This document shows positions 30,401-52,840 of a stretch of DNA of 64,000 bases, one piece after another. The notes beneath the pieces were generated by a model. That model had not been told where the DNA came from. It saw only the letters and a program-made list of their open reading frames with translations, and did not search any database. Numbering within the stretch: position 1 is the first letter of the stretch; each line of letters opens with the position of its first letter. A program made the translations under genes and the position numbers. Origin of the DNA: an uncultured virus (IMG/VR IMGVR_UViG_3300042298_001940) (lineage: Duplodnaviria; Heunggongvirae; Uroviricota; Caudoviricetes); the IMG/VR virus record IMGVR_UViG_3300042298_001940; one strand, written 5' to 3'.

Positions 30401-33400
30401 AATTGACAACACAGCCGTAACCACCCAGTCTTCATACATGCCTTCCCAGACCCAAGGTGGTTTTGAGGCTCATAAGGAAGGACTGAAGTTATATGTAAAC
30501 GATATCATTCATACGGCGCTTGGGATCCAACACAAACACAAGGAACAGGCAAATATCGATGCCATCCACCGCAATGCTGGGTTGATTGCGGCTGGTCTTC
30601 CACTTGATGCCTCGTTTACCAACCCAGACATGATCGAAGATGCAAAAAGACTGGGTAATAAGATCAAGCTATTCAATAACCAACTAAGATCCAAACTGGT
30701 CGAATCCAGAATCAAGGATACGGGAGACAACCTGGATGCAATCGGATTGAAGCTGGTAAAGTCAACGCAGCTGGAACAAGAGCAAAGAGACATGGGATAC
30801 AATGCCGTTGTCAATGCAATGCGGGCAAAGTATCTGAACAACCTCGACAACGACAGACTTGATTCGATTGTCAATCCATTCATGATGTACATCGCTGGAT
30901 TGCTGGTCAATCCATCTTCGGACAAAAACTCACTACAGAGTGCTGAGTTCAGGAATGAGATCATCAAGTTTACCAAAAACCCAAACAATGCTGCTATAAA
31001 CGCAAAGGAAGCATCCATCAAGAATCTGGTAAACATGGCTATGGTAATCAGGTTGCAGAAGGAAAAGCAAATGTATCCAAGCAGAACCATAGGAGACATC
31101 CAAACCAAGGTAGCCAGGGATCCATTCTATCTCAACGAAGAGATAATAGAAGCCAGCAATAGATTCATCGTTGCCACAAGAGAAAACTCATCTAGATTCA
31201 ACACGGCCTTCAACAACCTCACGAACACCGAGATACAGTTGATCCATGCTGCCGTCAGGGAAGTGGTAGCAACCAGAGAAGGAGATGAAAGTTCATTGGT
31301 TGCAACCAGAATCAAGGAGATAAAGAGCAACAAGGAATCGTTCGGGTACTATCAGGGCAAGAGCAACTACTATCCGCGCAGAACGGATCTGTCAAACCCA
31401 ATGTTCATCCTTGCCGACCAGTTCCTAGGCAAGCTTGGATCGACGGCCTATCTATTCTTAAATAGCGGACCAGACCTCACATACGCGGACATTTTCTTGA
31501 ATCCAATAGGAATAGATCCAAGAGACCAGCAGTATCTACAGCGAATGTTTGACGATGACATTCCGACAATCCAGCAAAGCCTGATGAGAGGACAGGGATA
31601 CGATGCAATCCAGAGAATCATCGTCCAAAAGATGACTGGCATAGAAGGTGCGTACTTCTCCATCTCACAGCTCATTGATATGTTTGAGACAGAGGTACAA
31701 GCACGGGGTCTGGCCCACAACAACATGCGTGTTCAGAACTTTGATAATAGAAGAGACGATCACAGGGAACAAACCTTGTTGAATGGATTGCAAAAACTGA
31801 GGGTTGCCAACAGCAAGGCAAAGGAAGTTCTTGGCGTTCGGGAAGAAAACCAACCACTAATCGATGCGATTAACAAGTACGGCCCGATTGCAACGACCCT
31901 GGCCTACGGACCCAACGCAGCCTTGGCCACAACACTGGTGGAAGGAACCATGGGTGCCTTGGAAAGCGTCCTACAGGGAGCTGCTGGCGGAATGGCCACA
32001 TCCCCGATCACATTCCTTTTTGAAGCATTCAAGATGAACATGGACTCAAGCCTGAGGACAGTCCAGAAGATCGTAGATAGACGGGACGGCAGAACATCGT
32101 TCTTCAATGTAGATCCATACTTGCTAAGCAAGACGGCGGAAAACGCATTGTGGATGATGGAAGAAACCACATCACCGCAAATCCCAGGCCAGCTTACCGT
32201 CAATGCCCTGAGCGCCGATGAAAAGGCAAATATGAATACTTTTGACAGATTCATGGCATTCTCAAGAAGAGCATACTCGGATCCAATGAGATCTTTAAGA
32301 GTTGCAGCCGAGAATCAGGCAAACAGGGGCGTTGTGGAAAGACTGAGGGATGGATCCTTGGTCAGGTTGCGGGACAGCGTGAACCGAATCCTAAGGGACA
32401 ATCCAAGTCCAAGCAACGAAGTACTAAGGGAAGTCCTGAGGGATGCAGGGGTGCGTATGGATGTCGAACTGATGCTCATCTACGTCAGGTCTGGTATATT
32501 CGTACCTGGCCGCATCGAAGCACTACAGTACACCATGTCTCAAGCACCAACCAAGACAAACAGGATCATGTACCAGGTCATGGCAGACATCGAAGCAGAC
32601 CTTAGGCTAGGAACGACATACGATGGTGTTACGATCACCCCAAGCCTGATGCACGATGCAAGACTCAGCATGGCAACCCTGTCCAAAGCATATGCAAACC
32701 TAAGCATAGTCATGGACCATCCATTGGATGGCACCGCTGCATCCGATGGCCTAAGCGTTGTCCTTACATTCTACAAGTCGTATCCAACCTTGTTCATGGC
32801 TCAGCAGATCTACAGACGGGGAAGCGTAGCCCCAGCGTTCAGGCACGGCATCAGGTTGCTTACCCATGCAATGCTTGACATGATCTATAACATCCTGTTG
32901 GCCTTGGCAAGCGGCTGGTACAAGTGGGAAGAACTCATGGAACGGATAGAGAAGGGAAACATTAACTACACCGAGCTAGCCAAGTTGGTATTGAGATATC
33001 CCGTGTTCAGCATGAACAAGGTTGGATTAGTCAGTCAGTTGTTGGTAACCCTTGCAACAGACAAAATGAACAAGAACAGCATAATAAGCTCAGTCGGTGA
33101 ACAAGCCATCATAAACACGTTTTTCAACATGGGTAAAGCCGTAGAGTCATACTATTACTGGGCTACTGGTCAGGTAAGCAAGGAACACCCAGGTGTTGCC
33201 ACATACGCAGCACTCAGGGGATTCCTAAGTGCAGTCCCAGGAAACACACTGATCAGGATAATTCTTGAGCAATCCTTTGGTCAGTCTGGAACCACAGGCA
33301 CAGCCACCAGACTGCCAGCCGCACTCATGAGGCAAGTTGACATGGTTTCAGATGAAAGACCAATGAAGGAATTCGTCCGAACCCTGTTCCCAGATGGCGT

Positions 33401-33560
33401 TAAGAACAAAAAACCAACGGTAAAGCCAATGAAGCTGACGGATATTCCGAAGATTCGTCCGCTATCTAGACAAACCCCAAAGACCAATACCCCAACAACC
33501 AAATCCCCCAGTATCAAGGAACAGGCAACCACGCCATTAAAAGCTCCGTCTGGTTTTTAG
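21420..33560 (+). CDS. giant polyvalent virion protein (4046 aa): DEDDy exonuclease domain, putative N4-like virion RNA polymerase core and zincin-like domain
   Basis: YDIET (D598/E600), GNSFDL (D688), YADND (Y804/D808); QKGRW (R1245), DYSYHG (D1322), RKEFLKGIITPSMYSAG (K1432-x7-Y1440); EELVH (2664) and DEFLAH. Confidence 0.65.
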   Translation: MPCSIDQLKHIADRLLKQGYSEEEVTSVVTLISKRDLDSDLSKKIDSLVTNPITTEDQDFLRKSVATMIANVDKVVTGGSILRLDELLSRVLPAEDVTRVKELIKKIRIADGNVDLFSISYIEDIDNLIEMNRNLGRESILPMLFDRRDKAVQKMNESRRYEDTKEGNKRRERDEALNKINQLKHLLNYVEYVINMTTPKGTSNKVKRYLTAKEKIKSLQKSLKTERSLVKRFKAGVKGFKETNQRIKELEKELSDAKQEEQVAFEDIVNDKFLELSDGKKTIKLKSVAKAQEQIKNAIEREAKKVDGFGVEEISKLTAAATKSLAEKLVQERIASRNIKATVERMNKLVDFYEEEKEKAGETRDAIDHIFMGTIVGKAVVERWLRKNRTKKAEDGSMEVDRRPLSVLAAKDIINEWKALAWFGVQEGTFSDDVATAVDSELALLESMVNSSGVANPLSMDVNNMRVKQDRTGAEAAMMTNIGVIPEENKAQTARQLSSWLEYTIRGLYSLRASPFYNGTVTSKAIDMVLHPKLYDLTINSDSLGLVSGKKRKMNQPSKAMYLGRMKELLKDLGIEDPESLPEFKPDFSTNRNAISYDIETDPVDKGTSNPTKIISMQIRVQDIDSGAEPVSYVFTNADDSKPPVNNLTVDGPKKPLTKQQIEWVLRFMEEYQNKGFKLVTFAGNSFDLGKLNNPAFVDDAKLVTRIALRSYDLQRNLGFHNKERRKGGKYFSSKPKNAGLKSIAKNNLPDSRTVTEDGRYVVTNGAVYELGEGGVEVEILGKEAEENFNKANLDNDWAKFNLYADNDVITTLDLFNYFITNAQTNVSIVDEIDSGLSYSIMINRPQSNMMLPLDDNNTNSITFSELMSSFTDVDSRIKEFSHDVEYVEEMDINLDKLISLLETWYIQALSMDPESKDKLNQLQKALTDTINTETIVQQTGKKVADRMAKAVKESAKENFARFGYVLAINTDENGNPRLDTEDEHSLFLPADSETVYVENLVEAFVDALKTSRSLDSVEKEMVEKFNIRSRQQHEEPSVYFQRFLTQVLNTYFPINALSDFGNGNVDWHPARDVGVALAHVFTNRKEGMSLVDVKTMMGTQGFSGRQFAAEEATNRGVPRFFLLDGTNFASPWGITEEALIYDNFRLLSRMKDIMERDLTEEEMKDIEKWATTKEDSDPEVALSVFRRGAVPTVFPKVTSRAAYDFLPSLSERELMGQEFLFDIPRLMMFINHDAFYTPLAQKGRWLQDGSIYYAEDFFTAGAPTAKMILSGAIDHIAWLVSFDKLNPNNKNLDKVLRKALSDGIDAVIADPTVQDSANKNDYSYHGVHIQLMLLLSASGEQDVFDKFLEELTKKLDTEQEADVRKNFEQFKKENDPRNKLNDMLIDLLEQAKNNREQFKGLFNLSEDQTNAFLELLPFLEDPTPKRKEFLKGIITPSMYSAGYQGIFKGILAKADSAGLTNITERHASVVAKIVTNKIKDENARYVDKAIGIYGKTKQGKDKKQVIIDVLWGMSARIDEAKIKENAFKNFNNEVDAKKRIDSAVAYLKTFIRLMVDQSMSKAGKNEDDIKKEREAKINELSDKYQERMNKAAAIMAKHDMRDPDVRNDPKIQDEINIALMGDKRSYHTHLMLHTIARRAATPFKLLADKETMEMHSAYAGQHIDEADVTPFMSKTLFNAMGLELASGRHHMFGNYEWGPQGSKAAQIRVLHGSDKNELGIWDIEEVYKNTERNKAYREAYVRQIMLDLAPNYYPPGYDPETESMESFFDAMNKRSRLERAAQVRAQNTLDINRIIDRNDPNARKISDTAEKLEENNFKSRLGWIRGNYQRDRSKPIVLDPTVSGLAALRPRHANIDYTQRGMYALIGMMKTREIEQTEMFKRNKLVQEAPKDGDPNNIIPKTMRGFVKTTDKRNMPYVPHQSGNMITSLTISPNREVEIEAVRLRNTLTNFAVDNGLEDMLKKGEWTRLWMIKEWRRQGLEGAIYSMKNQNKSDLSSMMLSRIKMYEAIFKLMGTNARAYSPEKTYSTLDLMAKPEDVSFTADEIDELRKNFPDGLRYLDLLRHISGRFDRLTGLANNRPLVAVPGIIARGNPGLIVNEPALRSLSAFSIENNNNISMMLIMTDVFQEEAEKEYKDDPSIPRDSAGNIALSMIPADKNKSMKIFERVLARANDVASEWGTRKDIVMVFSPEQLEEYNNTQKEVAKQGENQLTLQMPLTSSTHVFNQVSNPDTLWYFTPDMVIQFLNSLRNDDPITNYELGWQTRKTVGFVRTDADILVMEEQNQLMDNLGRSVDLSHQALVLLHTLDPSPDNNTLLYQNNYRKLDNMGNPTMTLDATAYLGSSFEINLEIDGTEQSIAISLETAMFATDILSAITRARKLGMYEEANKLSLFLYNELTEPSVDISKDATKINPTKDIVIKAAVLKSRLDGLNNVPVYRIREIIMSTLQTEISAEDAKNAFEMAHDVSRLIQKIADTNPDQNQKMNYVANALLSRREMAEEGVENDSSLQGMIIQAVGAKDTPQERSKAMRALYIAQQDLSTVPEDRPFGHLPWDARKDVARFADQDEFIRAFGDSGRGIVDQLNGMVSMGYMSRRVADMKMILIGSLAIVNPDILSDLSLDASEFDGQTYARMAKQNGKYSIGVNIKAMETTPENEMLLKFAEELVHLARVKYMADGSEEYKRIQAVFRLPNSEGMIREMLLAMHNGKPYAAIEQDVQYAMDNTDEFLAHWGAVVLLSETVYSPDTLVKLEAKYAPVEMTSNWFKRAFFKIKNIAIRALNMMSQMSLDRKYSDSFNEMYDVMQGLIGQGLTDRRDVGNPDMAFNAVFSIKTDQVQVTPGMYMDMRVAVFEKNRLNGRIRAGDATPADETQLRTIEDTLNDPKANPLGIMGMTLSQVVEEMENISRSESGNIVRIKNGSLANRAILQKAMTHYFGQRGTRVDNSGTLGGTIRNMFRGADDFISLQIQNRLLQSFNNSNLTYNSPEAILVFISDAIDNTAVTTQSSYMPSQTQGGFEAHKEGLKLYVNDIIHTALGIQHKHKEQANIDAIHRNAGLIAAGLPLDASFTNPDMIEDAKRLGNKIKLFNNQLRSKLVESRIKDTGDNLDAIGLKLVKSTQLEQEQRDMGYNAVVNAMRAKYLNNLDNDRLDSIVNPFMMYIAGLLVNPSSDKNSLQSAEFRNEIIKFTKNPNNAAINAKEASIKNLVNMAMVIRLQKEKQMYPSRTIGDIQTKVARDPFYLNEEIIEASNRFIVATRENSSRFNTAFNNLTNTEIQLIHAAVREVVATREGDESSLVATRIKEIKSNKESFGYYQGKSNYYPRRTDLSNPMFILADQFLGKLGSTAYLFLNSGPDLTYADIFLNPIGIDPRDQQYLQRMFDDDIPTIQQSLMRGQGYDAIQRIIVQKMTGIEGAYFSISQLIDMFETEVQARGLAHNNMRVQNFDNRRDDHREQTLLNGLQKLRVANSKAKEVLGVREENQPLIDAINKYGPIATTLAYGPNAALATTLVEGTMGALESVLQGAAGGMATSPITFLFEAFKMNMDSSLRTVQKIVDRRDGRTSFFNVDPYLLSKTAENALWMMEETTSPQIPGQLTVNALSADEKANMNTFDRFMAFSRRAYSDPMRSLRVAAENQANRGVVERLRDGSLVRLRDSVNRILRDNPSPSNEVLREVLRDAGVRMDVELMLIYVRSGIFVPGRIEALQYTMSQAPTKTNRIMYQVMADIEADLRLGTTYDGVTITPSLMHDARLSMATLSKAYANLSIVMDHPLDGTAASDGLSVVLTFYKSYPTLFMAQQIYRRGSVAPAFRHGIRLLTHAMLDMIYNILLALASGWYKWEELMERIEKGNINYTELAKLVLRYPVFSMNKVGLVSQLLVTLATDKMNKNSIISSVGEQAIINTFFNMGKAVESYYYWATGQVSKEHPGVATYAALRGFLSAVPGNTLIRIILEQSFGQSGTTGTATRLPAALMRQVDMVSDERPMKEFVRTLFPDGVKNKKPTVKPMKLTDIPKIRPLSRQTPKTNTPTTKSPSIKEQATTPLKAPSGF

Positions 33561-33744: not shown

Positions 33745-34095
33745 ATGGCCAGCACCTATTCCTTCGATAAGAAGGAATACAAGACTCTCGGTACGGACTA
33801 CGGTTCGTGCCGAGAAGTAAACCTGGACGAAGCCGTCAAGGTCTACGGCGAAAGCCTTCGACTGGTGGTTGCGATGTCAGTCGCAACCAATTCGGGTCGC
33901 GTGGTCCTTGCAAGGACCCACGCGAAGTGCCAGGGGAAGTGGGTGGAGCTGGAACTCAGGTTGCTGTTGATGAGGTTTTCATCAGACAAGGTCTGTGTGG
34001 AAGTCCTCGAAGACATCATCGTCCCCGAAACGGAAGGATTCACCGAAGGGATGGACTTCCGCCAAAGAGACAGGTTTAACATCATAGGGTGTTAA
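33745..34095 (+). CDS. hypothetical early protein
   Basis: GAAAGG RBS, ATG 33745, GC3-rich codons. Confidence 0.7.
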   Translation: MASTYSFDKKEYKTLGTDYGSCREVNLDEAVKVYGESLRLVVAMSVATNSGRVVLARTHAKCQGKWVELELRLLLMRFSSDKVCVEVLEDIIVPETEGFTEGMDFRQRDRFNIIGC

Positions 34096-34103
34096 ACCAG
34101 CCA

Positions 34104-34169
34104 AGCCCTACTGTCGCTCCCTCCTAGGTAGGTCCCTAGGAGGGAGCTTTCAGTTGCGCTTTGCAACAA
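34104..34169 (+). repeat. intergenic structured repeat, copy 1 (RNase III site or hairpin promoter candidate)
   Basis: AGCCCTACTGTC-[13-bp stem]-TTTCAGTTGCGCTTTGCAACAA; repeated at 34376-34438. Confidence 0.85.
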
Positions 34170-34213
34170 GGTGTACCTGTGCACCAACGCACCACAGGAA
34201 GAAAGGACATGGA

Positions 34214-34375
34214 ATGTTCTACTACAAGGTGATGAACGAGTTCGGTATGTTCGTGGATTCGGAGTCCTTTGAGACCGCCGAGGCCCGCGACAAGGCGTTG
34301 GCCTTGAAGAACTTTGACTCGTACTACACTATCTGGGTTGGCCAGGACGGCCAGCCCGCCAAGCAAATTCAGTAA
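34214..34375 (+). CDS. small hypothetical early protein (53 aa)
   Basis: GAAAGGA RBS, ATG 34214; lies between the two repeat copies. Confidence 0.7.
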   Translation: MFYYKVMNEFGMFVDSESFETAEARDKALALKNFDSYYTIWVGQDGQPAKQIQ

Positions 34376-34438
34376 AGCCTTACTGTCGCCCCCCTAGGAG
34401 AAATCCTAGGGGGGCTTTCAGTTGCGCTTTGCAACAAC
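34376..34438 (+). repeat. intergenic structured repeat, copy 2
   Basis: AGCCTTACTGTC-[GCCCCCCTAGGA-GAAA-TCCTAGGGGGGC]-TTTCAGTTGCGCTTTGCAACAA. Confidence 0.85.
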
Positions 34439-34499
34439 CCTGGCTTGTGGGGATCACAAGCAAACAAATCTTGGCAATGCCAAGAGAAAGGTAGATTCC

Positions 34500-36299
34500 A
34501 TGTCTATCATGGATCTGATGGGCGAAAGCCTCAAGGTGGTGTTCGGTGGTCGTTCGATGTCTTTCGCCACTGCGGCGATGAACGCGATGAAGATCGCGTC
34601 AGCCGTGGAGACGGAGGCGAACGAGCAGACCAGCAAAACCTGGGAACGCAGCAAGATGATGCTGCAAGAGCTGATCAGAGCGGGTGTGCTTCACACCACC
34701 CAGATCAGCAACCCGACCACGGGATTGGCGCAGACCTACTGCGCCTTCACGGAAGGCTTCGCCCTGCGTGAGTTCCGTAGGGAGCCATCTATCAAGGAAG
34801 AGGATCTCCTCACCACCGCTCGGACGGCGGGTGTCCTCAGCTACCTCGGTAGCTGCGGTATTCGCATCAACCCCGAGGTTGTGGCGTTCATCCGCCGCAA
34901 CAAGGATCGGTACGAGAAGACCGACTCCATGGGACGGAAGGTCACGCCTCCGTCCCTGTTCCTCAGGGACGCACAGTCCTTGGAGAACGAGGAGGATGAT
35001 CGCCCGATCTTCATGGACTACAAGAGTCCTGACAACAGGCGGTTCTACGCTCTCCACAATCGGTTCACCCATCAGGGTGCCGAGTGGATGCGCGCCTCTG
35101 TCGATGCGGCTGAGGAGAAGCCGATCAAGCCAGAGGACATCGATGATGCGTTCATCATCGTGACCAAGGAGACGGGCGTGACCCGTACCAACTGGCGGGC
35201 CATCCTCAAGGACGAGTCCCTGTGCTTCACGGGCAAGCACCTGGGCCTCAAGACCAGCAAGCCCGCAGCGGTGTACCGTGCCGCAATCTTCTTCAGGGAG
35301 ATCCTGGAGAAGGGACGTTCTGGGTACATCATCCAGCAGGACCAGACCTGTTCGGGGTTCCAGATCATCGCCATGCTGCTGGCGTGTCGGAACCTGATGA
35401 CGCTGACTAACCTCAATGGTGGCGAGGAGCAGGACTTCTACACTGCTTCGTCGGATCTGGCCAGGGGCATGTATTCGGGTGAGTTCTTCCCCGAGTGCTT
35501 GTTCATCCGCAGCGGCGCGAAGTACTTCGTGCTTCGCATCGGCTACGGCGCGGCCACATCCTCGCTGGCACGGGGTCTCATCCTCGCCAACCCGCAGGAG
35601 AGTCCCGTCCAGTACCTCACCGAAGAGGGGGCGTTCATCCCTGGAGTCCTCGACAAGCTCCCGATCCAGGACTTCAACGAGGACTACTACGAGATGTGGA
35701 AGGATCTCGGATGGAAGAGGGCGGTGGAAGTCTCACAGCAGACCTCCAAGGCGTACTACGGGGCCATCATGCAGATCAGCCCCAAGCTGCGTTGGTTCCT
35801 GTCCAGCATGAAGCTGGCGAACAGGATTGCCCTTGAGCGGGGCGAGTTCCTGTCGTGGGAGCCGATCCCAGGCGAGGTCAAGAAGAATGTCCGCTACACG
35901 GCGGACTGGAAGGCCAAGCCCCGCAAGGTGCAGTTCTTCGACAAGAACGGGAAGGAGTTCTATGTGAACATCCACCCGTTTGAGAAGGATGCGGCGGCAA
36001 GTGCGGCCCCGCCGTGCTATGTGCACTCCTTTGATGGTGCGACCATCATGCTGGTGGTGGAGATGTGCAAGGAACTCGGTATCCCCGTGTTCCCGATCCA
36101 CGACTCCATCGGCACCACGGTGGACAACTTCAAGAAGGTGAAGGAGATGTGGCTCAATGCCACGCGGCACATCTTCTGCTACGGTCCCTCTCCCTTCTGG
36201 GATGTCGTCAAGAAGTACAACCTCCCAGTTCCCGCGTCACTGTTCCCCAACGGGCACCCAGAGCCCATCGATGTCTGGGGCGAGCATTTCATGGGTTGA
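34500..36299 (+). CDS. compact single-subunit (T7/N4-family) DNA-directed RNA polymerase, ~599 aa
   Basis: DNRRFY (DxxGR-like), motif A DQTCSGFQ, motif B RSGAKYFVLRIGYG (Rx3Kx7YG), PPCYVHSFDG, motif C IHDSIG; GAAAGG RBS before ATG 34500. Confidence 0.88.
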   Translation: MSIMDLMGESLKVVFGGRSMSFATAAMNAMKIASAVETEANEQTSKTWERSKMMLQELIRAGVLHTTQISNPTTGLAQTYCAFTEGFALREFRREPSIKEEDLLTTARTAGVLSYLGSCGIRINPEVVAFIRRNKDRYEKTDSMGRKVTPPSLFLRDAQSLENEEDDRPIFMDYKSPDNRRFYALHNRFTHQGAEWMRASVDAAEEKPIKPEDIDDAFIIVTKETGVTRTNWRAILKDESLCFTGKHLGLKTSKPAAVYRAAIFFREILEKGRSGYIIQQDQTCSGFQIIAMLLACRNLMTLTNLNGGEEQDFYTASSDLARGMYSGEFFPECLFIRSGAKYFVLRIGYGAATSSLARGLILANPQESPVQYLTEEGAFIPGVLDKLPIQDFNEDYYEMWKDLGWKRAVEVSQQTSKAYYGAIMQISPKLRWFLSSMKLANRIALERGEFLSWEPIPGEVKKNVRYTADWKAKPRKVQFFDKNGKEFYVNIHPFEKDAAASAAPPCYVHSFDGATIMLVVEMCKELGIPVFPIHDSIGTTVDNFKKVKEMWLNATRHIFCYGPSPFWDVVKKYNLPVPASLFPNGHPEPIDVWGEHFMG

Positions 36300-36321
36300 A
36301 TCAACCAGAAAGGACAGCACA

Positions 36322-36810
36322 ATGCAAGTCAAGATCAAGTCCATCGGCAAGCGCGTGGCAGACCTCAACGCCGAGGTCGGCCACATCCCAGGTACCGAGT
36401 CGGGTACCACCCAGGTCTTCGTCCGCGAGGGGGACAAGATTAAGGTTCTCATCGATCTCAAGGACAAGAGCACCAAGTCTGCCTTCTGGCAGAAGAAGTT
36501 GGTGCAGAACGAGAACGGGTTGTTCGTTCTCATGAGCAGCGAGACCCCAGCTCAGGTCTTCGGCCATGAGTTGGTCATGGAGAAGAAGGACACCCAGTAC
36601 CGTCTGGGTGTCAAGGTGACCGACAAGGAGGGCACCAAGCTCGGTGTCTTCTACGGTCCCGTCACCAACAGCCCCGAAGAGGCCAAGAGGCTGTTCTGGT
36701 CCACATGGAACATGAAGGAACTCAATCCCTTCATCCCCGCAGATCGCAAGACGGTGCATCTCCGTCTTGCCGTCATGGGGTACCGCACTCAGGAGGTGGC
36801 CTCCTTCTGA
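36322..36810 (+). CDS. hypothetical early protein (162 aa), possible RNAP accessory factor
   Basis: GAAAGGA RBS, ATG 36322, same GC3-rich codon style as the compact RNAP; the function is inference only. Confidence 0.75.
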   Translation: MQVKIKSIGKRVADLNAEVGHIPGTESGTTQVFVREGDKIKVLIDLKDKSTKSAFWQKKLVQNENGLFVLMSSETPAQVFGHELVMEKKDTQYRLGVKVTDKEGTKLGVFYGPVTNSPEEAKRLFWSTWNMKELNPFIPADRKTVHLRLAVMGYRTQEVASF

Positions 36811-36830
36811 CAGAATAGATAGAGCAGCAT

Positions 36831-37066
36831 AACCCCTTCGGGGTTTCTTGTGCCCCCTTCGGGGTACAATGCTATCCCTTCGGGACCTACGCCCTTACGG
36901 TAATGTCCCCTTCGGGGCCTTCGCTACCCCTTCGGGACCTTCGCTGCCCCTTCGGGAAGGTGGGTCACTATCATCAGTGGGTATGCCCCTAGGGGGCTTT
37001 AGACCCTTCGGGACCCCTACGGGTACCCTTCGGGCGTTAGAACGCCGTATAGGCGATCCTAGGGGC
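36831..37066. repeat. array of CCCTTCGGG mini-hairpins
   Basis: exact copies at 36834, 36855, 36876, 36908, 36928, 36948, 37004 and 37026, plus variants; mostly 20-22 nt spacing. Confidence 0.92.
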
Positions 37067-37328
37067 ATTAAAATGCATGTGGTAACCTCTTTGGGAACGT
37101 GTTTCCCTTTGGGGTTACCTGTTTTTCCCCTTGGAACTGCCATAACATGTCATGTGACTGCCATTTCATGCCATATTGGCACACCCACGCCCCGCGCACG
37201 CGAGATCCCAACACCAACGCGCCTTCGGCGTGCGGGCAACTCTAAGTTGCCCTTGTTGAGAAAATGTCGGGGTGATTGTTCACGGCGCGTATACTGTGAC
37301 AATGACCCCCATTGCGAAAGGACAGAGA

Positions 37329-37589
37329 ATGGCAGACATCAATGAGGCAGCCGCAAAGTTGGCGGCATTCGGAGTAACCGTGACCACCCAGCCCGTAAAG
37401 CGGGAGACACGGGTGGTCGATCCGCTCAACCGAGCTATCGGTCTCTTGGCTGCGGCCAAGAACCCCAACCTGAGCGAGGAGAGCCGAGCAGCCGCCATGG
37501 CCCGCCTTGGTGCCCTGCTCGACAGCCAGCCTGAGCTGGCATCCAGCGTGTCAGCTGTAGCTGAAAAGCAAGCCAACAGCGGTCGCTAA
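37329..37589 (+). CDS. hypothetical protein (86 aa)
   Basis: GAAAGGA RBS before ATG 37329. Confidence 0.75.
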   Translation: MADINEAAAKLAAFGVTVTTQPVKRETRVVDPLNRAIGLLAAAKNPNLSEESRAAAMARLGALLDSQPELASSVSAVAEKQANSGR

Positions 37590-38500
37590 ACTCCACTAGG
37601 GGAGTATAAAGTAGTTAAGCCTAGTGCGTCCCCGTGGCAACACGGGGGGTCCCGACTGCTACAACCGTGGCAACCGTAGACTTGAAACACCTACGGCAAC
37701 TATTGCCAGTTTCAACGGTCAAGGGCTAACTTATATGGAATACCTAAACCCACATTCCATACATGGCAGGGTAAATAGGGTTACATGGGGCCTCCTAGCG
37801 GAAACGCTAGGTGGTCTTTTCCTTCCCAGCTACTGTTGCTTAGGGCTGGGGTCGGAAGGATTAACAAGCAACTGCAAACACAGGAATGAGCCCAACTGTG
37901 TTAAGATTTGGAGGCTCCCATGCTTCTTAGTGGGAAACCATTAAGAAGTATTTCTCCTCGTAAGAGGAAGGCCCATAAAAAATTGGCAATTCTGGGCACC
38001 GCAAGCAACCTAGCCCATAGGCGGTATATAAATAGTGGGACACCCTTTTGTTGTGGGTTTGGGAATGATCACCCCAAGCCAACCGAGCCTGAATATGCTC
38101 TGGTCATCAAAACTATTTTGGACTTAGGGTAAGTGGATGTCCCTAGGCGTACTTTGATACGCGCAACCATAAAACCTTGGGAATACCAATGCATGGGTCT
38201 GCTGATAACCCCGTAAGTTTTCCAAAAGGTGAGAAGAACCTCACAACGCCATGTCAGATCAGGAATCTTGGCACGAACTTAACGCAGCCATCCATATCCA
38301 TAGGGTATGGTAGATGGGGTTGTATAGGACTCTACAGGAATTTCCTTGTAGATACGCCGCCTAATTAGCGGTACACTCTAGTTCTGCACTAGAGGGTGAT
38401 ACTCTCCTGAGTGCAGCAGGAGCGGATATGGTTGCTGGCAAGCCATGTCTGTATAAAAGCCACCGTGTTACTCCGAGCGGGCAATTCGGAGTTCCTTATA
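37590..38500 (+). ncRNA. candidate large structured non-coding RNA
   Basis: ~900 nt with no RBS-supported ORF; more than 15 stem-loops, several capped by GNRA tetraloops on the + strand. Confidence 0.55.
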
Positions 38501-38502
38501 AG

Positions 38503-38541
38503 ATGTACTTTAGTGTACAGAGTGCGCCTTTACAGGAGACA
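38503..38541 (+). promoter_or_regulatory. 39-nt repeated leader (promoter/RBS candidate), copy 1
   Basis: ATGTACTTTAGTGTACAGAGTGCGCCTTTACAGGAGACA; 33/39 identical to 38798-38836. Confidence 0.6.
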
Positions 38542-38545
38542 AACA

Positions 38546-38785
38546 ATGCACCTTTATGATTATGTTTTCAACGATAGGGATGCTACATTTTGGCACAAGT
38601 CCTATAAGGATTGCCTCAAGAACTTGGAAAGCGCAGAGACTTTGAACGACACTCTTCGCAAGAAGATCTCTGAACTTGAGTATAAGTTGATCAAGTATGA
38701 GGCAAACCAACTGTACAATACCCTGTGTATGCAAGGCAAGTACGATGACGCAAGGGTTGTTCATGAATTGATCACCCGCATCTAA
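38546..38785 (+). CDS. hypothetical coiled-coil protein
   Basis: AGGAG RBS, ATG 38546. Confidence 0.7.
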   Translation: MHLYDYVFNDRDATFWHKSYKDCLKNLESAETLNDTLRKKISELEYKLIKYEANQLYNTLCMQGKYDDARVVHELITRI

Positions 38786-38797
38786 CTGAAGAAACAA

Positions 38798-38836
38798 ATG
38801 TACAATTGTGTATAGAGTATGCCTTTACAGGAGACA
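38798..38836 (+). promoter_or_regulatory. 39-nt repeated leader, copy 2
   Basis: ATGTACAATTGTGTATAGAGTATGCCTTTACAGGAGACA. Confidence 0.6.
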
Positions 38837-38838
38837 CA

Positions 38839-39216
38839 ATGACAAGAATTGAAACAATGGATGATTGGGCCAGGTTCATCGACAACTACCCCCGTAAGGT
38901 GGTTGGCAACAGCGTAATGCGGCCAGGAATGATGCTTGGTGATGGCTGTACCCTGAGCATTCAGGCAAGTGAGTTACATTACTGTACTCCTCGTTCATCC
39001 TCTGCAACCTTTTACACCGCATGGGAAATTGGGTTTCCTAGTAAGGTTATCCCAGAGATCCTAGAGTGGGCAGAAAATTCCGATGACCCAACCGAAACAG
39101 TCTACGGGTATGTCCCTGTAGATGTGATTCTCAATGTGATCAAGGCCCGAGGTGGTACCGTACAGCAAGAAAAAACATATGAGCAAGCAACGCAAGATCA
39201 ATCGTCGGAAGCGTAA
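38839..39216 (+). CDS. conserved phage hypothetical protein
   Basis: DG.TLSIQAS..HYCTPR...EIGFPS...VYGYVP pattern, recognised as a common phage family. Confidence 0.75.
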   Translation: MTRIETMDDWARFIDNYPRKVVGNSVMRPGMMLGDGCTLSIQASELHYCTPRSSSATFYTAWEIGFPSKVIPEILEWAENSDDPTETVYGYVPVDVILNVIKARGGTVQQEKTYEQATQDQSSEA

Positions 39217-39310
39217 GACTGGGTATGTCAACCTGGTTCCTGCGTCTCCATTCACCCGTACATTCACCTCTTTCAAGGAGTTCGCAGATGCAATGGTACA
39301 TCGCAGCTGA
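39179..39310 (+). CDS. small basic protein (43 aa)
   Basis: MSKQRKINRRKRKTGYVNLVP...; fills the intergenic gap. Confidence 0.4.
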   Translation: MSKQRKINRRKRKTGYVNLVPASPFTRTFTSFKEFADAMVHRS

Positions 39311-39354
39311 CGGAACTGTTCACACGACTGCACAAGCAGCCAAGGAGACCATGG

Positions 39355-39765
39355 ATGGCCGTTGATCCAACCCTATTCAATAAGGTGGTTGCCAACAAGA
39401 CCGCCCTTCGGGAAAATATGATTGGTAGTGTCATGGCAAGTGGCAAGCCTAGGTGGGCTGCGGCCATGCTGGTTGACCAGCGCATGCCTACGACAACCAA
39501 CCGCAAGCAGCTTGCAGAGGTTGGTATTAATGTGACTGGACCAGACCAGATCCAGGAAATCCTGGATACCATGGCCATGTTTGGTGTTTACTTTGTGAAC
39601 ACCAAGGGCAAGACCAAGGAAGAATTCTGGGACCAGCTTCAAAACGTCCTTGACGAAGAGGTCAACGACCTTCCGCCTAACAACGACATGTGTGAGTTTA
39701 TTGACCTCATGGGACAAGAGGGCAATAACGAGTTTTTCAATGTCCCAGTAAAGGAATTGAGCTAA
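39355..39765 (+). CDS. hypothetical protein
   Basis: AAGGAG RBS; 136 aa. Confidence 0.7.
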   Translation: MAVDPTLFNKVVANKTALRENMIGSVMASGKPRWAAAMLVDQRMPTTTNRKQLAEVGINVTGPDQIQEILDTMAMFGVYFVNTKGKTKEEFWDQLQNVLDEEVNDLPPNNDMCEFIDLMGQEGNNEFFNVPVKELS

Positions 39766-40152: not shown

Positions 40153-40395
40153 ATGACTTTTAAACATAGACTGAATGTAACCCTGGAACAGGAGACCTAT
40201 GATGTCTTAGTTCTTGTAGAAGGTGTTGTGATCCCTGAGCCTTATGGTTCCGTGGACAGGCACCATCCTGTTGTTATTTCCTTTAAGATTCTTAACCAAG
40301 ACAACCCTGTACTGTATGATTTGATCAACACAATGTACATGCCTCAACTAGAAGAAGCTGTAAGTAACAACTTTATTGGAGTAGACAATGCATAA
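40153..40395 (+). CDS. hypothetical protein
   Basis: 80-aa ORF in the packed + strand operon. Confidence 0.55.
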   Translation: MTFKHRLNVTLEQETYDVLVLVEGVVIPEPYGSVDRHHPVVISFKILNQDNPVLYDLINTMYMPQLEEAVSNNFIGVDNA

Positions 40396-40741
40396 GAAAA
40401 TCGCAAACAAATGGGTAACCGCTCTCCGTAGCGGGAAGTATCGCAAGACTACTGGCGAACTTTGCAAGGTTGCCGAGAATGGTAACAAAAGTTGGTGTTG
40501 TCTCGGTGTTCTAACCGACCTGTACAACAAGGAACATAAGCAAGATCCTATTGAAATTGATGAAGGAGATGAAGATCTTCCAGATTCAGTTGAGAAGTGG
40601 TCTGGTATGTGGTCTTGTAGTGGTAAGTTGCAATACAACAATGCTGTTACATCCCTTGCTGAACTCAATGATTGCAAGAAGAGCAAGCGTTCCTTCAAGC
40701 GTATTGCTGACATCATTGAAAAGAACTGGGAGCAACTGTGA
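40388..40741 (+). CDS. CCLGVL-family small phage protein, paralogue 1
   Basis: W..ALRSG.Y...CCLGVL.DLY...ND...F..IA..IE. Confidence 0.8.
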   Translation: MHKKIANKWVTALRSGKYRKTTGELCKVAENGNKSWCCLGVLTDLYNKEHKQDPIEIDEGDEDLPDSVEKWSGMWSCSGKLQYNNAVTSLAELNDCKKSKRSFKRIADIIEKNWEQL

Positions 40742-41112
40742 AGAAAGAAATTGCAGACATGTGGTGTGCAGCTCTCCAAAGTGGGGAGTACAACCAAGGC
40801 AGAGGAACTCTTTGTCTTCAATATAGTAATGACACAAAGGCTTGGTGTTGCCTTGGTGTCCTGTGTGACTTGTACAACAAGCACAATCCTCCAATGAAAG
40901 TAAACATGCTTTCTGGTTCTGGGGGAAAGTATGTATCCTTCAACCAATATTCAACTAACTTGCCCCCAGAAGTTTGTGTTTGGAGTGGCATGACAAGCAC
41001 AAACGGAAAACGAACAGGTTTTAGCGTTAGTCTTGTTACTTTGAATGATCATTATGGTTATTCTTTTGCAGAGATTGCCAATGTGATTGAAAAGGAATGG
41101 GAGACACTGTGA
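40738..41112 (+). CDS. CCLGVL-family protein, paralogue 2
   Basis: same motif set. Confidence 0.8.
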   Translation: MKKEIADMWCAALQSGEYNQGRGTLCLQYSNDTKAWCCLGVLCDLYNKHNPPMKVNMLSGSGGKYVSFNQYSTNLPPEVCVWSGMTSTNGKRTGFSVSLVTLNDHYGYSFAEIANVIEKEWETL

Positions 41113-41345
41113 AGTGGCAACCCATTGAAACCGCACCTAAGGATGGTACTAAAGTTGTGTTGTATTGTCCATCAAACGATACATTTATCTTTGATGCTGT
41201 ATATCGAAAAGTGGCATTCTCTAACAGCCGTAGTGATTGGCACGAATGGGATGGAGAATATGTCGGTGCTTGGAGTAAACTTCCTGATTGGTTTAAGCCA
41301 ACTCATTGGATGATTGTTACACCGCCTAATGGAGACAACGAATGA
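41109..41345 (+). CDS. DUF551-like protein
   Basis: WQPIETAPKDGT...PTHWM. Confidence 0.75.
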   Translation: MKWQPIETAPKDGTKVVLYCPSNDTFIFDAVYRKVAFSNSRSDWHEWDGEYVGAWSKLPDWFKPTHWMIVTPPNGDNE

Positions 41346-41689
41346 ACCAAGAAATTAAGCATCGCTGGATTGATGCCCTCCGTAGTGGTGACTATGAGCA
41401 GGGTAAGAATTACCTGTGTAGTGGGAACGGTAGTGGAGGCAGAGTGTGGTGTTGTCTCGGTGTTCTCACCGACTTGTATCAGAAAGAAACAAACAACAAG
41501 CTTATTGCTACTGGTGACAATCCATGTACTTTTGGTGCAGTTGTGTATGGTAATTCATGTATGTATCTTTCATCAGAAGTTCATGAGTGGGCTGGTCTTA
41601 CTATCAAGCAGGTTGATGTGTGTATTAAACTTAATGACTCACACAGTGTAAGCTTTGAAGGCATTGCCGCTGTGATTGATACTTGGTAA
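41342..41689 (+). CDS. CCLGVL-family protein, paralogue 3
   Basis: same motif set. Confidence 0.8.
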   Translation: MNQEIKHRWIDALRSGDYEQGKNYLCSGNGSGGRVWCCLGVLTDLYQKETNNKLIATGDNPCTFGAVVYGNSCMYLSSEVHEWAGLTIKQVDVCIKLNDSHSVSFEGIAAVIDTW

Positions 41690-41698
41690 CAACCATAG

Positions 41699-41771
41699 GC
41701 TTCGGTAACTCAGTTGGTAGAGTATCGGACTTTTAATCCGTCAGTCGCGGGTTCAAGTCCCGCCCGAAGCA
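41699..41771 (+). tRNA. tRNA-Lys(TTT)
   Basis: cloverleaf: acceptor GCTTCGG/CCGAAGC, anticodon loop CTTTTAA, T-loop TTCAAGT. Confidence 0.9.
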
Positions 41772-41785
41772 TTACAGGAATTCTT

Positions 41786-42058
41786 ATGTATAATTACAGA
41801 GCTAGAAAAGAATCATTTCAAATGGTTAGGAAAACATGCCCACATGTTGATGCTGCCTTGGCAAGTGTTGGGCAAGAAATCAAAGAACAACTTGATGCGT
41901 CCTTGCAGATGGCAGAAAAAAGCATCAAGGAACAAACACAAAATCTTTGTGATGCTTTGATTGAGGCTCTTGATCGAGCACTCACAGCGGAAGACCAAGT
42001 AGCAGAGCTAGAAAACAGAGTTGCAAAACTTGAATCACAACTGGAGAACCATACCTAA
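41786..42058 (+). CDS. hypothetical coiled-coil protein
   Basis: ATG 41786 after the tRNA; TCPHVD motif then a coiled coil. Confidence 0.65.
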   Translation: MYNYRARKESFQMVRKTCPHVDAALASVGQEIKEQLDASLQMAEKSIKEQTQNLCDALIEALDRALTAEDQVAELENRVAKLESQLENHT

Positions 42059-42059
42059 C

Positions 42060-42299
42060 ATGACCCCTAAGTACCCGCACATCACCGTTAACCTTGACAA
42101 TGTAGATGGAAATGCTTTTGCTGTAATGGGTGTTGTCACCCGTGCATTGAAGAAGCATGGTGTTCCCTGGGAAGAGATTGATGCATACCGTAAGGAATCA
42201 ATGAGCGGAAATTACGACAATCTCCTACAGACTATTCCTAAGTGGGTCAATGTCGAGTGGGGATATCCCGACGACGATGATGATGACTTCGAGGACTGA
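42060..42299 (+). CDS. conserved small phage protein
   Basis: DGNAFAVMG.V..AL...SGNYDNLL pattern; acidic tail. Confidence 0.75.
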   Translation: MTPKYPHITVNLDNVDGNAFAVMGVVTRALKKHGVPWEEIDAYRKESMSGNYDNLLQTIPKWVNVEWGYPDDDDDDFED

Positions 42300-42313
42300 A
42301 AGGAGACTGACCA

Positions 42314-42700
42314 ATGAAAAAGAAGATTGCAAATATGTGGATTACCGCCCTTCGTTCTGGTGAATACACGCAGGGTTATCGTGCGCTTTGTCGTGTTTAC
42401 AATGGTTCTAAGACCTATTGTTGTCTTGGTGTTCTTTGTGATTTGTATCAGAAGAATCAAACAAAGAACAAAAAGAAAAAGCTTAGCGTGAAAACTGTGA
42501 CAACCGATTCTTTTGAAAGCGTTATTGTTTTCGGTGGCAACGCTGGTGTACTCCCTATTGCAGTACAGAATTGGGCTGGAATGTCTTCCTATAGTGGACG
42601 CATCCCTTTTGGTGGTCCTAATCTCGTTAAAATGAACGATAATAGAAAGACATTCATTGAGATTGCCGACCATATCGAAAAGCACTATAAGGAGCTGTGA
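42314..42700 (+). CDS. CCLGVL-family protein, paralogue 4
   Basis: same motif set; AAGGAG RBS. Confidence 0.8.
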   Translation: MKKKIANMWITALRSGEYTQGYRALCRVYNGSKTYCCLGVLCDLYQKNQTKNKKKKLSVKTVTTDSFESVIVFGGNAGVLPIAVQNWAGMSSYSGRIPFGGPNLVKMNDNRKTFIEIADHIEKHYKEL

Positions 42701-42701
42701 T

Positions 42702-43232
42702 ATGAAAAAGAAACTGACCAAGGCAGAGATGCGTATTGCAATCGCAAAGGATGTGATTGCACAGATCAAGGCAAAAAAGTACAACCCAATGCAGGGTTGT
42801 TGGGTTGATCAGGTAGGTGGCCAAGACTATGATGATTGGCTTTTTGCTAATCCAGAGAATTGTAAGGTTGATGTACAGGTATACACCAAGAGCATCAAGA
42901 AGTGCAATGTCTGCGCTCTTGGTTCTCTGTTCGTAAGTGCCGTGAACAAGTACAACAATGTCTACGGAACTTTTAATACCGTTTCAACCAATGAAGTCTT
43001 TGATACCAGTGAGACAAACAACCGCAGTCCACTGCTTAGGTACTTTACTCTCAATCAGATTCGGTTGATTGAGGCTACTTTTGAGGGTGGAATGGGAGCT
43101 GTTTATTTCGATTACGATCATCCAATGGTCAACAAGTCGCGTGCATTCTACTCTCGGTATCCCAATAGCAAGGATCGTCTCCTTGCAATCATGAAGAACA
43201 TCGTCAAGAACAACGGAACATTCAAGCCATGA
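42702..43232 (+). CDS. hypothetical protein (C.VCALG motif)
   Basis: AAGGAG RBS; IAKDVI.QI...CNVCALG...RLLAIM.NI..NNG.F.P. Confidence 0.7.
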   Translation: MKKKLTKAEMRIAIAKDVIAQIKAKKYNPMQGCWVDQVGGQDYDDWLFANPENCKVDVQVYTKSIKKCNVCALGSLFVSAVNKYNNVYGTFNTVSTNEVFDTSETNNRSPLLRYFTLNQIRLIEATFEGGMGAVYFDYDHPMVNKSRAFYSRYPNSKDRLLAIMKNIVKNNGTFKP

Positions 43233-43495
43233 TTGCTAAGGTTGCTCAGTCCTATATCTACCACGAAGATAAACTCTTCTTCATATCTACCAGCAACCGT
43301 CAGTCATCTGCAATGATTACTGATCCTCCTTGGTACACAGAAACTTTAGTATGGGAACTTGAGCCAGATCACCCAACTAATGTGGGCGATCTTGTTCATG
43401 AACCTAGTTCAAACTTTATGAACGATATCACCAGTCACTTTGAAGTTTGTATGCAATTCTTTAAGAATGGAAAAGCAAATGAAGAAGATGAGTGA
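43229..43495 (+). CDS. hypothetical protein
   Basis: ATGA-coupled ORF. Confidence 0.6.
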   Translation: MIAKVAQSYIYHEDKLFFISTSNRQSSAMITDPPWYTETLVWELEPDHPTNVGDLVHEPSSNFMNDITSHFEVCMQFFKNGKANEEDE

Positions 43496-44006
43496 ACCAC
43501 TAGAAATCTTTCGTGGTCCTAACTGTTCTATTTGGTCAGACAGTACAATAAGGTTTGATGACGGCGTTGGATGGGGTTCAACGGACAAGGAAGAAACCCA
43601 TCAATTGTACCTTGCCCTAAAGTCTTTATTTGAAAAGGAAATCACACCAATGAATCTATCTGTAAATGCGTATGGTAATGTTTCGGTTTGTGAAAAGAAT
43701 CTTCATACTAATTGGTCTTGGACATTCACCCCAGAAGAAAGCCTACGGCTTTTCAATCTACTCGCCAAGTACCACCAGCCAAAGCCAACCATCAGTGTTG
43801 AACTCGACTACCTCAAGGAGTTTGTGAACAAGGTTGTCAAGACAGAAGTCTTCAATGATGGGTCTATTAACTACATGATTCCACCAAACATTGGGGGTGC
43901 TAACTACCTTGAGGAATTTGGTTTGTCCAAGGAAGCAACCAAGTACATCGAGTCTATTGCCCGAGACAACCTGATCAAGAAGATTGAGAAGTTGGGCAAT
44001 GAATGA
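43488..44006 (+). CDS. hypothetical protein
   Basis: overlapping-start ORF in the operon. Confidence 0.6.
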   Translation: MSEPLEIFRGPNCSIWSDSTIRFDDGVGWGSTDKEETHQLYLALKSLFEKEITPMNLSVNAYGNVSVCEKNLHTNWSWTFTPEESLRLFNLLAKYHQPKPTISVELDYLKEFVNKVVKTEVFNDGSINYMIPPNIGGANYLEEFGLSKEATKYIESIARDNLIKKIEKLGNE

Positions 44007-44337
44007 AAAAGAAACAAGACCTTCAGTAAAATCGCAGATTGGATCGAAACAAACATTAAGGAAACAAACGATGACTATGACCGCAGCTAATATCGTTAAC
44101 CACAGTTCTTATTACAACAACCGAATCTTCTTTAATAAGGGATGGCAGGATCGAATGGCTGGATACGAGCGGTTCAATCCTTGGGTTGTCGAGGATTCTG
44201 AACTTGATGGCATGCCTGAGTATGCTCGTATGGCTCTTGAGGATTACACGGATGGCTGGGACAGAGCAAATTCCAAGATCAAGGAAATGCGGGAAGCACA
44301 CGCTAATGCCGCTGTTTTCGTTAACAATTGGATCTAA
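43999..44337 (+). CDS. hypothetical protein
   Basis: ORF with GW.D...Y.DGW pattern; start uncertain. Confidence 0.55.
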   Translation: MNEKETRPSVKSQIGSKQTLRKQTMTMTAANIVNHSSYYNNRIFFNKGWQDRMAGYERFNPWVVEDSELDGMPEYARMALEDYTDGWDRANSKIKEMREAHANAAVFVNNWI

Positions 44338-44340
44338 CCG

Positions 44341-45289: not shown

Positions 45290-45507
45290 TGCCAAAAACG
45301 ATTTACATCGGCCCTGAGTCGCAACGCACTGGCATCAGCATTGAATGGACTCCGTCTACCGAAAGGCTGTACATCTCAGGTTGGTACGACTGCATGGTCG
45401 GCATCGAAGGCGAATCGCTGACCCTGCGCGAGTTCTTCGACCGCCTGAACATCACCGAGGCGCATTGCCGCAAGGCGTTCCGCGAAAAGAAAGAGGTGCA
45501 GCCGTGA
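45289..45507 (+). CDS. hypothetical protein, GC-rich cassette
   Basis: GGAG RBS, ATG 45289. Confidence 0.65.
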   Translation: MPKTIYIGPESQRTGISIEWTPSTERLYISGWYDCMVGIEGESLTLREFFDRLNITEAHCRKAFREKKEVQP

Positions 45508-52835: not shown

Positions 52836-52840
52836 TTGTT

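What the first reader, a model, noticed from the sequence alone, without database searches (positions are those of the whole stretch)
37590..38500. ~900-nt hairpin-dense non-coding region: candidate large structured phage RNA
Seen: the longest stretch without a credible gene in an otherwise tightly packed genome, tiled with stems. Examples: CCCCGTG-GCAA-CACGGGG (37630-47), TATGGAAT/ATTCCATA (37734-61), CCTAGCG-GAAA-CGCTAGG (37794-811), ATGCTTCTTAGTGG-GAAA-CCATTAAGAAGTAT (37920-51, with G-U pairs), TCCTC-GTAA-GAGGA (37955-68), plus ACTCTAGT/ACTAGAGG and CTCCGA/TCGGAG. GNRA loops and G-U pairs both point to a + strand RNA. Competing pairings at 37674-37719 may form a pseudoknot or switch. Established: phages carry giant ornate RNAs such as GOLLD and ROOL. 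Inference: this is a member of such a class or a new one.
Basis: partly seen in the sequence, partly recalled or inferred. Interest (0 to 1): 0.8.

Follow-up and report, generated by a model that had tools for sequence, protein, structure and literature searches.

The report
Shuffled RNA-knot array in lake phages
A 950-base gene-free stretch near the start of a lake phage's early genes is not one giant RNA but a string of small, swappable folded RNAs led by a self-cutting ribozyme, one of which closely resembles a bacterial antitoxin RNA; what they do is untested.

Summary
The hairpins are real and the stretch is non-coding, but it is not GOLLD, ROOL or one ornate RNA. It is the early leader of an uncultured T7-like lake phage: a pistol ribozyme (37590-37653, Rfam 38.9 bits) followed by about 17 short folded modules, none matched in Rfam. 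Seven modules tested covary; predicted long-range pairs do not. Eighteen leaders (window included) carry 14 different module sets over 464-1477 nt, and the nearest relative changes from module to module. Module H (37998-38042) aligns with the type III antitoxin CptI in both stems but has an 8-nt insert, is single and has no toxin gene; module J is coremin-like. Best reading (0.45): self-cleavage and RNase III-like hairpins cut the first transcript and the knots resist decay. Novel reading (0.2): an RNA anti-defence island of decoys. No transcript shown; host unknown.

The parts
37117..37128 (+). ACCTG(T/C)TTTTT motif, probable concatemer-junction pause marking the genome's left end (inferred)
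   Evidence: Only match in the window; found in 13 of 44 leaders, window genome included; T7 has ATCTGTT at position 161. Its role in T7 is recalled.
37329..37589 (+). ORF1, 86 aa, unknown function, directly upstream of the array
   Evidence: No Pfam hit above cut-off, no PHROG hit; homologue in 1 of 43 other leaders; RNA contigs cover it in 4 of 4 runs laid.
37590..37653 (+). Module A: pistol ribozyme; predicted cut G37649/U37650; P2 reduced to one pair
   Evidence: Rfam RF02679 38.9 bits, cut-off 34.5; P1 and pseudoknot 100% paired in 17 sequences, P2 67%; P2 and GU counts.
37664..37719 (+). Module B: nested P1-P2-P3 with a 6-bp loop-to-3'-bulge pseudoknot
   Evidence: 14 sequences, 93.6% of cells paired, 7 of 21 pairs changed on both sides.
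37730..37783 (+). Module C: 12-bp stem, invariant ACCC/GGGU pseudoknot after an A-rich linker
   Evidence: 18 sequences, 12 of 12 stem pairs changed on both sides; pseudoknot never varies, so it is not shown by covariation.
37787..37820 (+). Hairpin T1 (GAAA loop, UCUUUU tail): weak terminator or RNase III site
   Evidence: Only terminator-like hit in 36700-38900, fewer than the 2.2 expected by chance; present in 16 of 18 leaders.
37821..37996 (+). Rare modules D, E, F (hairpins) and G (two hairpins)
   Evidence: Present in 2, 2, 4 and 7 of 18 leaders; D-F 94% identical to L181 only.
37998..38042 (+). Module H: H-type pseudoknot, near-invariant CAAGCAACC loop, A-rich linker; CptI-like
   Evidence: 20 sequences, 7 of 11 pairs changed on both sides; 17 of 18 leaders; aligns with natural cptI repeats, 98 of 99 cells paired.
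38056..38118 (+). Hairpin I and module J, a small coremin-like pseudoknot
   Evidence: 28 J-type copies on the sense strand of the leaders, 0 on the reverse; a close variant in at least 120 viral contig stretches; no Rfam match at those sites.
38120..38275 (+). Modules K, L, M (rare, weakly supported)
   Evidence: 2, 5 and 5 of 18 leaders; five-sequence alignment only; pairs not counted.
38283..38357 (+). Modules N and O: hairpin, then a bulged hairpin with invariant GGACU
   Evidence: O in 15 of 18 leaders; 87% of cells paired, but the number of covarying pairs is not above shuffles.
38373..38422 (+). Module P: two hairpins with complementary loops (kissing)
   Evidence: 10 sequences, 97.9% paired, 8 of 14 stem pairs changed on both sides; loop pairing invariant.
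38426..38492 (+). Modules Q and R: two consecutive pseudoknots
   Evidence: 15 sequences; both pseudoknot helices 100% paired, with 2 and 1 pairs changed on both sides.
38496..38538 (+). Module S: T7-like RNase III-type hairpin plus ribosome binding site of the next gene (ATG 38546); tail repeated at 38821
   Evidence: Same AAG-stem-CUUUA layout as T7 hairpins near 1440 and 5860; second copy of the tail; that the T7 hairpins are RNase III sites is recalled.

Best explanation
Shown (about 0.9): the stretch is a mosaic array of small, independently folding RNA modules in the early leader of a T7-like phage, exchanged between relatives as cassettes. Inferred mechanism (0.45): it is transcribed with ORF1 at the start of infection; the pistol cuts after ORF1 and leaves a 5'-OH end, T1/F and the RNase III-like hairpin S cut or stop the RNA further down, and the knots (B, C, H, J, Q, R share a stem, an A-rich linker and a pseudoknot) act as roadblocks to 5'-to-3' decay. 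The result would be stable leader fragments and a protected early message. Content varies because host nucleases select on it.
For: Pistol at the same place in 8 of 8 relatives scanned. Covariation: 0 of 500 shuffles reach the paired share or covariation score in all seven alignments. 14 module sets among 18 leaders; H lies before the pistol in L212, L215, L216, L232 and is doubled in L181. Module best matches 84-100% come from different relatives while the nearby conserved gene is at most 78% identical. J resembles coremin, which stalls Xrn1 (PMC6546385, PMC10520033, passages), and in the 45 foreign contexts printed it often sits just ahead of a start codon (by eye). Flaviviral xrRNAs also resist RNase J1 (PMC7603331, one passage). 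S resembles T7 leader hairpins. Ribozyme processing of polycistronic RNA has been proposed (PMC6765202, passages).
Against: No transcript, cut site or nuclease resistance shown. The window's pistol keeps only 1 of 3 P2 pairs, as do 7 of 17 aligned copies, and 3 of 17 lack the GU, so cutting may be slow or lost. If S is cut, upstream knots cannot protect the downstream message, and ten roadblocks in a row look redundant. The window's J misses the strict coremin loop and spacer. No sigma-70-like promoter found on +. Host and its nucleases unknown. Module helices were drawn after seeing the alignments, so the local-versus-long-range contrast is partly circular; a first, unrefined version did not separate them (0.47 vs 0.44 kept).
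Confidence: 0.45

Rival explanations
1. RNA anti-defence island: the modules are released as small RNAs that act in trans as decoys for host defence proteins; H mimics a CptI-type antitoxin and holds its RNase toxin inactive.
For: H versus cptI: 24 of 30 ungapped identities, 28 of 34 core columns by my count, both stems in the same register. H ranks 1 of 10,658 window tiles for both cptI units tried (z 6.9, 6.0) and takes the top three places among 42,000 tiles of 16 relatives' loci. The repeats used include ones upstream of CptN (PDB 4RMO, E 4.9e-70). Precedent: phage pseudo-ToxI (PMC3475682, abstract). First-expressed, hypervariable position like T7 ocr. Invariant unpaired loops in H and O suggest recognition.
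Against: H has an 8-nt insert where CptI has a one-base loop (PMC4627078, passages), is a single copy and lacks the GA/AAG processing flanks. The pistol's own P1 and A-rich linker show the same motif, so convergence on an A-minor knot is plausible. The search pattern was written knowing CptI. None of five ToxI units ranked an array tile first. ToxN-family genes: 7 of 251 genomes in the phylum of G002, 0 of 251 above cut-off in each of the phyla of G405 and G406; CptN 0 of 151. Of 119 bacterial hits to the H pattern 3 could form both stems, as by chance (scan truncated).
Confidence: 0.25
2. A ribozyme cluster: several of the unmatched modules (B, O, Q/R) are undescribed self-cleaving RNAs that chop the leader.
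For: Self-cleaving ribozymes are enriched near each other and near phage genes (PMC10085705, PMC5737381, passages). B and O have invariant unpaired bases.
Against: No Rfam ribozyme other than pistol in 15 loci at E up to 2. Structures found near ribozymes often did not cleave (PMC6765202, passage).
Confidence: 0.12
3. Signals act on DNA or are nearly neutral: a spacer for genome entry, origin or promoter signals, with hairpins spread by recombination.
For: Position near the inferred genome end. Array DNA is almost uncovered by RNA contigs: one 189-nt piece in the closest strain.
Against: G-U-tolerant covariation, pseudoknots and a ribozyme point to RNA. Modules are better conserved than the flanking genes.
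Confidence: 0.1
4. One large ornate RNA of the GOLLD/ROOL kind, with optional domains.
For: Length about 900 nt; module order is mostly kept; GOLLD has a variable 5' part and kissing loops (PMC12286853, passages).
Against: No Rfam match; length 464-1477 nt with insertions that include coding-size stretches; long-range pairs not conserved; an internal terminator-like hairpin; nearest tRNA 3.2 kb away.
Confidence: 0.06

Closest known systems
Pistol self-cleaving ribozyme (Rfam RF02679; PMC4604425, first quarter of the text read)
   Same: Module A passes the Rfam cut-off; P1, pseudoknot, P3 and the GU junction are present; phage context is typical.
   Different: P2 has one pair in this copy; some relatives lack the GU or have a rearranged P1. 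It covers only the first 64 nt of the array.
CptI antitoxin of cptIN type III toxin-antitoxin systems (PMC4627078, PMC3401426, passages) and phage pseudo-ToxI (PMC3475682, abstract)
   Same: Module H: same stem 1, same A-rich linker with the kink U, stem 2 in the same register with compensatory changes.
   Different: 8-nt loop insert, one copy, no toxin gene, no GA/AAG flanks, freshwater phage rather than gut Firmicutes.
Coremin / xrRNA-C of plant RNA viruses (PMC6546385, PMC10520033, passages)
   Same: Module J: 3-4 bp hairpin, loop ending in AU, AAACUA core downstream.
   Different: 8-nt loop starting CU, longer spacer, a 5-bp Watson-Crick pseudoknot; DNA phage; resistance untested.
T7 early leader and RNase III processing hairpins (record NC_001604; helix rule from PMC1540722, passages)
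   Same: End-repeat motifs, pause-like motif, non-coding leader, AAG-stem-CUUUA hairpin before a ribosome binding site.
   Different: No such knot array or ribozyme is annotated in T7's leader; here ORF1 precedes the leader.
GOLLD and ROOL RNAs (PMC12286853, PMC5737381, passages)
   Same: Phage-borne, several hundred nt, rich in pseudoknots and kissing loops.
   Different: No model match, no conserved multistem core, not in a tRNA island, modular and shuffled.

Membership tests
GOLLD / ROOL | Match to the Rfam covariance model | tested here: not met
   No hit at cut-off over the window or at E up to 10 over 36700-38700; none in 15 relatives' loci at E up to 2.
GOLLD / ROOL | One conserved multistem fold with covarying long-range helices | tested here: not met
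   84 long-range pairs: 2 compensatory, 38 broken cells; 14 module sets in 18 leaders.
GOLLD / ROOL | Abundant discrete transcript forming multimers | not testable with these tools
   Only contigs were available; they cannot show ends or level.
Group I/II intron, tmRNA, RNase P | Rfam or ARAGORN match | tested here: not met
Pistol ribozyme (module A) | P1, pseudoknot and P3 with covariation; conserved core bases | tested here: met
   38.9 bits; P1 and pseudoknot 100%, P3 88% paired.
Pistol ribozyme (module A) | Two-base (GU) junction between P3 and P2 | tested here: met
   G37649-U37650; GU kept in 14 of 17 aligned copies.
Pistol ribozyme (module A) | P2 stem | tested here: not met
   1 of 3 pairs in the window; Rfam marks the P2 pairs as non-standard.
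Pistol ribozyme (module A) | Mg-dependent self-cleavage | not testable with these tools
   Needs an in vitro assay.
CptI antitoxin (module H) | H-type pseudoknot with long A-rich loop and kink U | tested here: met
   features.
CptI antitoxin (module H) | One-base loop L1 | tested here: not met
   8-nt insert in all six H rows aligned.
CptI antitoxin (module H) | Two or more 40-48-nt tandem repeats upstream of a cptN gene | tested here: not met
   One copy in the 64-kb window; no ORF follows it.
CptI antitoxin (module H) | GA/AAG toxin-processing boundaries | tested here: not met
   Absent from the flanks of the six H rows (rule).
CptI antitoxin (module H) | Neutralises a cognate toxin | not testable with these tools
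   Needs a kill/rescue assay.
Coremin xrRNA-C (module J) | 3-4 bp hp1 followed by the AAACUA core | tested here: met
   rule.
Coremin xrRNA-C (module J) | Loop YG...AD and an 8-10-nt spacer | tested here: not met
   Loop starts CU; spacer is longer in the window copy (rule).
Coremin xrRNA-C (module J) | Stalls a 5'-3' exonuclease | not testable with these tools
   Needs an Xrn1 or RNase J1 assay.
RNase III site (module S) | Helix of at least 11 bp above the cut | tested here: inconclusive
   8 + 3 pairs across a mismatch in the window, 9 + 3 in several relatives (rule).
Protein-coding gene | Frame kept among relatives | tested here: not met
   106-codon frame open in 1 of 15 relatives, variation even over codon positions (36/67, 38/66, 37/66); 70-codon frame broken in 4 of 4 relatives with F.

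The most novel reading that the evidence does not exclude
The first-transcribed leader of this phage family is an RNA anti-defence island: a recombining cassette array whose ribozyme-released, nuclease-resistant pseudoknots are decoys for host defence proteins, module H being a natural, widely kept mimic of a CptI-type antitoxin.
Probability: 0.2. Interest if true: 0.9.

Novelty: new variant of a known kind. Interest (0 to 1): 0.66.

Why it matters
The functions of phage self-cleaving ribozymes and of the RNA structures clustered beside them are an open question (PMC6765202, passages). Here about ten small, alignable modules with natural variants make three ideas cheap to test in vitro: self-cleavage, exonuclease blocking and toxin neutralisation. 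If the decoy reading holds, phages keep a swappable RNA counter-defence repertoire where T7 keeps ocr, far beyond the single pseudo-ToxI case. If only the roadblock reading holds, xrRNA-type knots extend to DNA phages and bacterial nucleases.

Tried and rejected
Cultured phages: one 44-nt match only; best RNA polymerase and capsid matches are 25-29% identical, so no host can be named. The window's own assembly is not held; nearest record G001 is identical over 36000-39500. RNA runs: contigs only. ORF1 is covered in 4 of 4 runs, with pieces ending at 37548-37635; the array has one 189-nt piece. Two runs hold a roughly 95% relative whose array may not lay, and table 8 was cut, so this is no evidence on expression. 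Weak Rfam hits (trpB, LOOT, snoRNAs; E 0.68-7.8) taken as chance. First long-range test did not discriminate; five helices were mis-registered and corrected. The 15-nt inverted repeat 37740/38052 gave 12 kept against 16 broken cells; the B-G pairing 1 compensatory against 8 broken. Bacterial scan for H was chance-dominated and truncated. Modules other than the pistol were found in none of 120 J-bearing loci and, among foreign pistol loci, only in contigs of this family. The R pattern gave 7 viral hits, six in the family and one probably chance. Atlas search of ORF1 gave no usable hit. Tandem-repeat units were found for 5 of 7 ToxN loci. Literature: searches listed no paper describing this array or the J motif in phages; the library is incomplete, and the supplement of PMC5737381, which holds 224 motif diagrams, could not be read, so an unnamed overlap with it is not excluded.

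Full report
Observation. That energy is not special within the window: coding DNA at 34001-35100 scores lower per 200 nt than the array. The case rests on comparison. Frames inside the stretch are not kept: the 106-codon frame is open in 1 of 15 relatives with variation spread evenly over codon positions, and the 70-codon frame at 37920 is broken in 4 of 4 relatives that hold its start.

Context. The window is a T7-like phage (capsid 3606, terminase 12641, single-subunit RNA polymerases at 34422 and 47756); of 24 runs listed, the 18 DNA runs are lake water. No cultured phage is close; the host is unknown. A motif like T7's ATCTGTT, which lies at position 161 of T7, occurs once, at 37117, behind short CCCTTCGGG repeats, and in 13 of 44 leaders. 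I infer that the genome's left end is near there, so ORF1 (37329-37589) and the array are among the first sequences transcribed; the role of the T7 motif is recalled.

What it is. Rfam finds one thing: a pistol ribozyme at 37590-37651 (38.9 bits, cut-off 34.5), also present in 8 of 8 relatives scanned. Relatives were gathered by polymerase, by a small conserved downstream gene and by motif; 63 loci collapsed to 44 non-redundant leaders, many truncated. Per-segment alignments resolve about 18 modules covering 83% of 37590-38540. For the seven alignments counted, no shuffle of 500 reached the paired share or the covariation score, and slid registers fell to 20-55% paired: H, B, C, Q/R, P, pistol, O. 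The tool warns that relatedness alone can beat shuffles; the C pseudoknot and the P loop pairing never vary and are not shown by covariation; K, L, M and N rest on 2-5 sequences.

It is not one RNA fold. The 18 leaders that span the array (defined as holding A or B plus S, window genome included) show 14 module sets and lengths of 464-1477 nt; counts run from 2 (D, E, K, N) to 17 (H); H precedes the pistol in four other leaders and is doubled in L181. The nearest relative changes by module: B is 97% like L227 and L222, D-F 94% like L181, L-M, P and Q-R 97-99% like L178, while the neighbouring conserved gene is at most 78% identical. ORF1 has a homologue in 1 of 43 other leaders and the next ORF in none. 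Local helices show 130 compensatory against 75 broken cells, long-range predicted pairs 2 against 38; this is partly circular because local helices were drawn from the alignments, and the unrefined test did not separate the classes.

Likenesses. Module H aligns with natural cptI antitoxin repeats fetched from 20 of 401 genomes (control pattern 2); the ORF behind the one tested matches CptN, PDB 4RMO. There are 24 of 30 ungapped identities, both stems pair in one register in 98 of 99 cells, and H ranks first among 10,658 window tiles. Against membership: an 8-nt insert in the loop that is one base in CptI (PMC4627078, passages), a single copy, no toxin gene and no processing flanks. The pattern was written knowing CptI, the pistol carries a similar stem plus A-rich linker, and type III toxins were not found above cut-off in samples of two phyla common in lakes (0 of 251 each). 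Module S has the layout of two T7 leader hairpins and recurs before the next gene.

How it most likely works. Shown: a shuffled array of separately folding RNAs headed by a pistol. Inferred (0.45): the first transcript is cut by the pistol and at RNase III-like hairpins, and the knots block 5'-to-3' decay; that a 5'-OH end resists RNase E and J is recalled, and RNase J1 resistance of xrRNAs is from one passage of PMC7603331. Weak points: this pistol has one P2 pair, no promoter was found, and cutting at S would uncouple the knots from the downstream message. That last point, the hypervariable first-expressed position and the CptI likeness favour the rival (0.25) that the pieces act in trans as decoys, as pseudo-ToxI does (PMC3475682, abstract). 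A cluster of new ribozymes (0.12), DNA-level or neutral signals (0.1) and one ornate RNA (0.06) follow. RNA contigs neither show nor exclude an array transcript.

Novelty. The pistol is a known family; the other modules matched nothing in Rfam 15, and eight literature searches listed no description of such an array, with the caveat that the supplement of PMC5737381 was unreadable. Earlier notes of this scan describe comparable cassette arrays and coremin-like knots in other phages; none was sequence-similar to this stretch and none used the words CptI or antitoxin. Verdict: real, non-coding, modular; new variant of ribozyme-associated phage RNA clusters; interest 0.66; RNA anti-defence island 0.2 likely, 0.9 if true.

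Noticed in passing
window 34422-36299: A second, shorter single-subunit RNA polymerase gene (Pfam RNA_pol E 7.6e-12) in a GC-rich block; its coding DNA folds far below shuffles (z -4.8 to -6.1 at 34001-35100).
   Followed up: no
window 21420-33560: A 4046-aa protein after the virion genes; its first 1000 aa match no Pfam family.
   Followed up: partly
window 36830-37040: About ten CCCTTCGGG hairpin repeats at 17-39 nt spacing, like the short repeats at T7's end; probably the genome terminus.
   Followed up: partly
window 40388-46070: At least seven paralogous ORFs of 93-128 aa with a W..AL.SG.Y and CCLGVL signature (phrog_18067 for one).
   Followed up: no
L187:2435-2514, L181:2605-2681, L217:1217-1284: Pistol variants with P1 replaced or the pseudoknot strand outside the P1 loop; they score below the Rfam cut-off. 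L227 has a 90-nt insert in P3.
   Followed up: no
L222:2554-2950: A 394-nt insert between modules F and G that holds an open frame, showing that coding-size cassettes also enter the array.
   Followed up: no
L008:2544-3120, L015:3900-4640, L020:4493-4888: Relatives carry further unmatched folded modules upstream of the pistol or absent from the window, so the family repertoire is larger than the 18 described.
   Followed up: no
L113-L115 (one viral contig): Three pistol-pattern matches within about 4 kb in an unrelated phage contig.
   Followed up: no
window 41699-41771, 52763-53188: tRNA genes Lys, Ile(TAT), Leu, Arg and one weak tRNA-like hit at 53042-53108.
   Followed up: no
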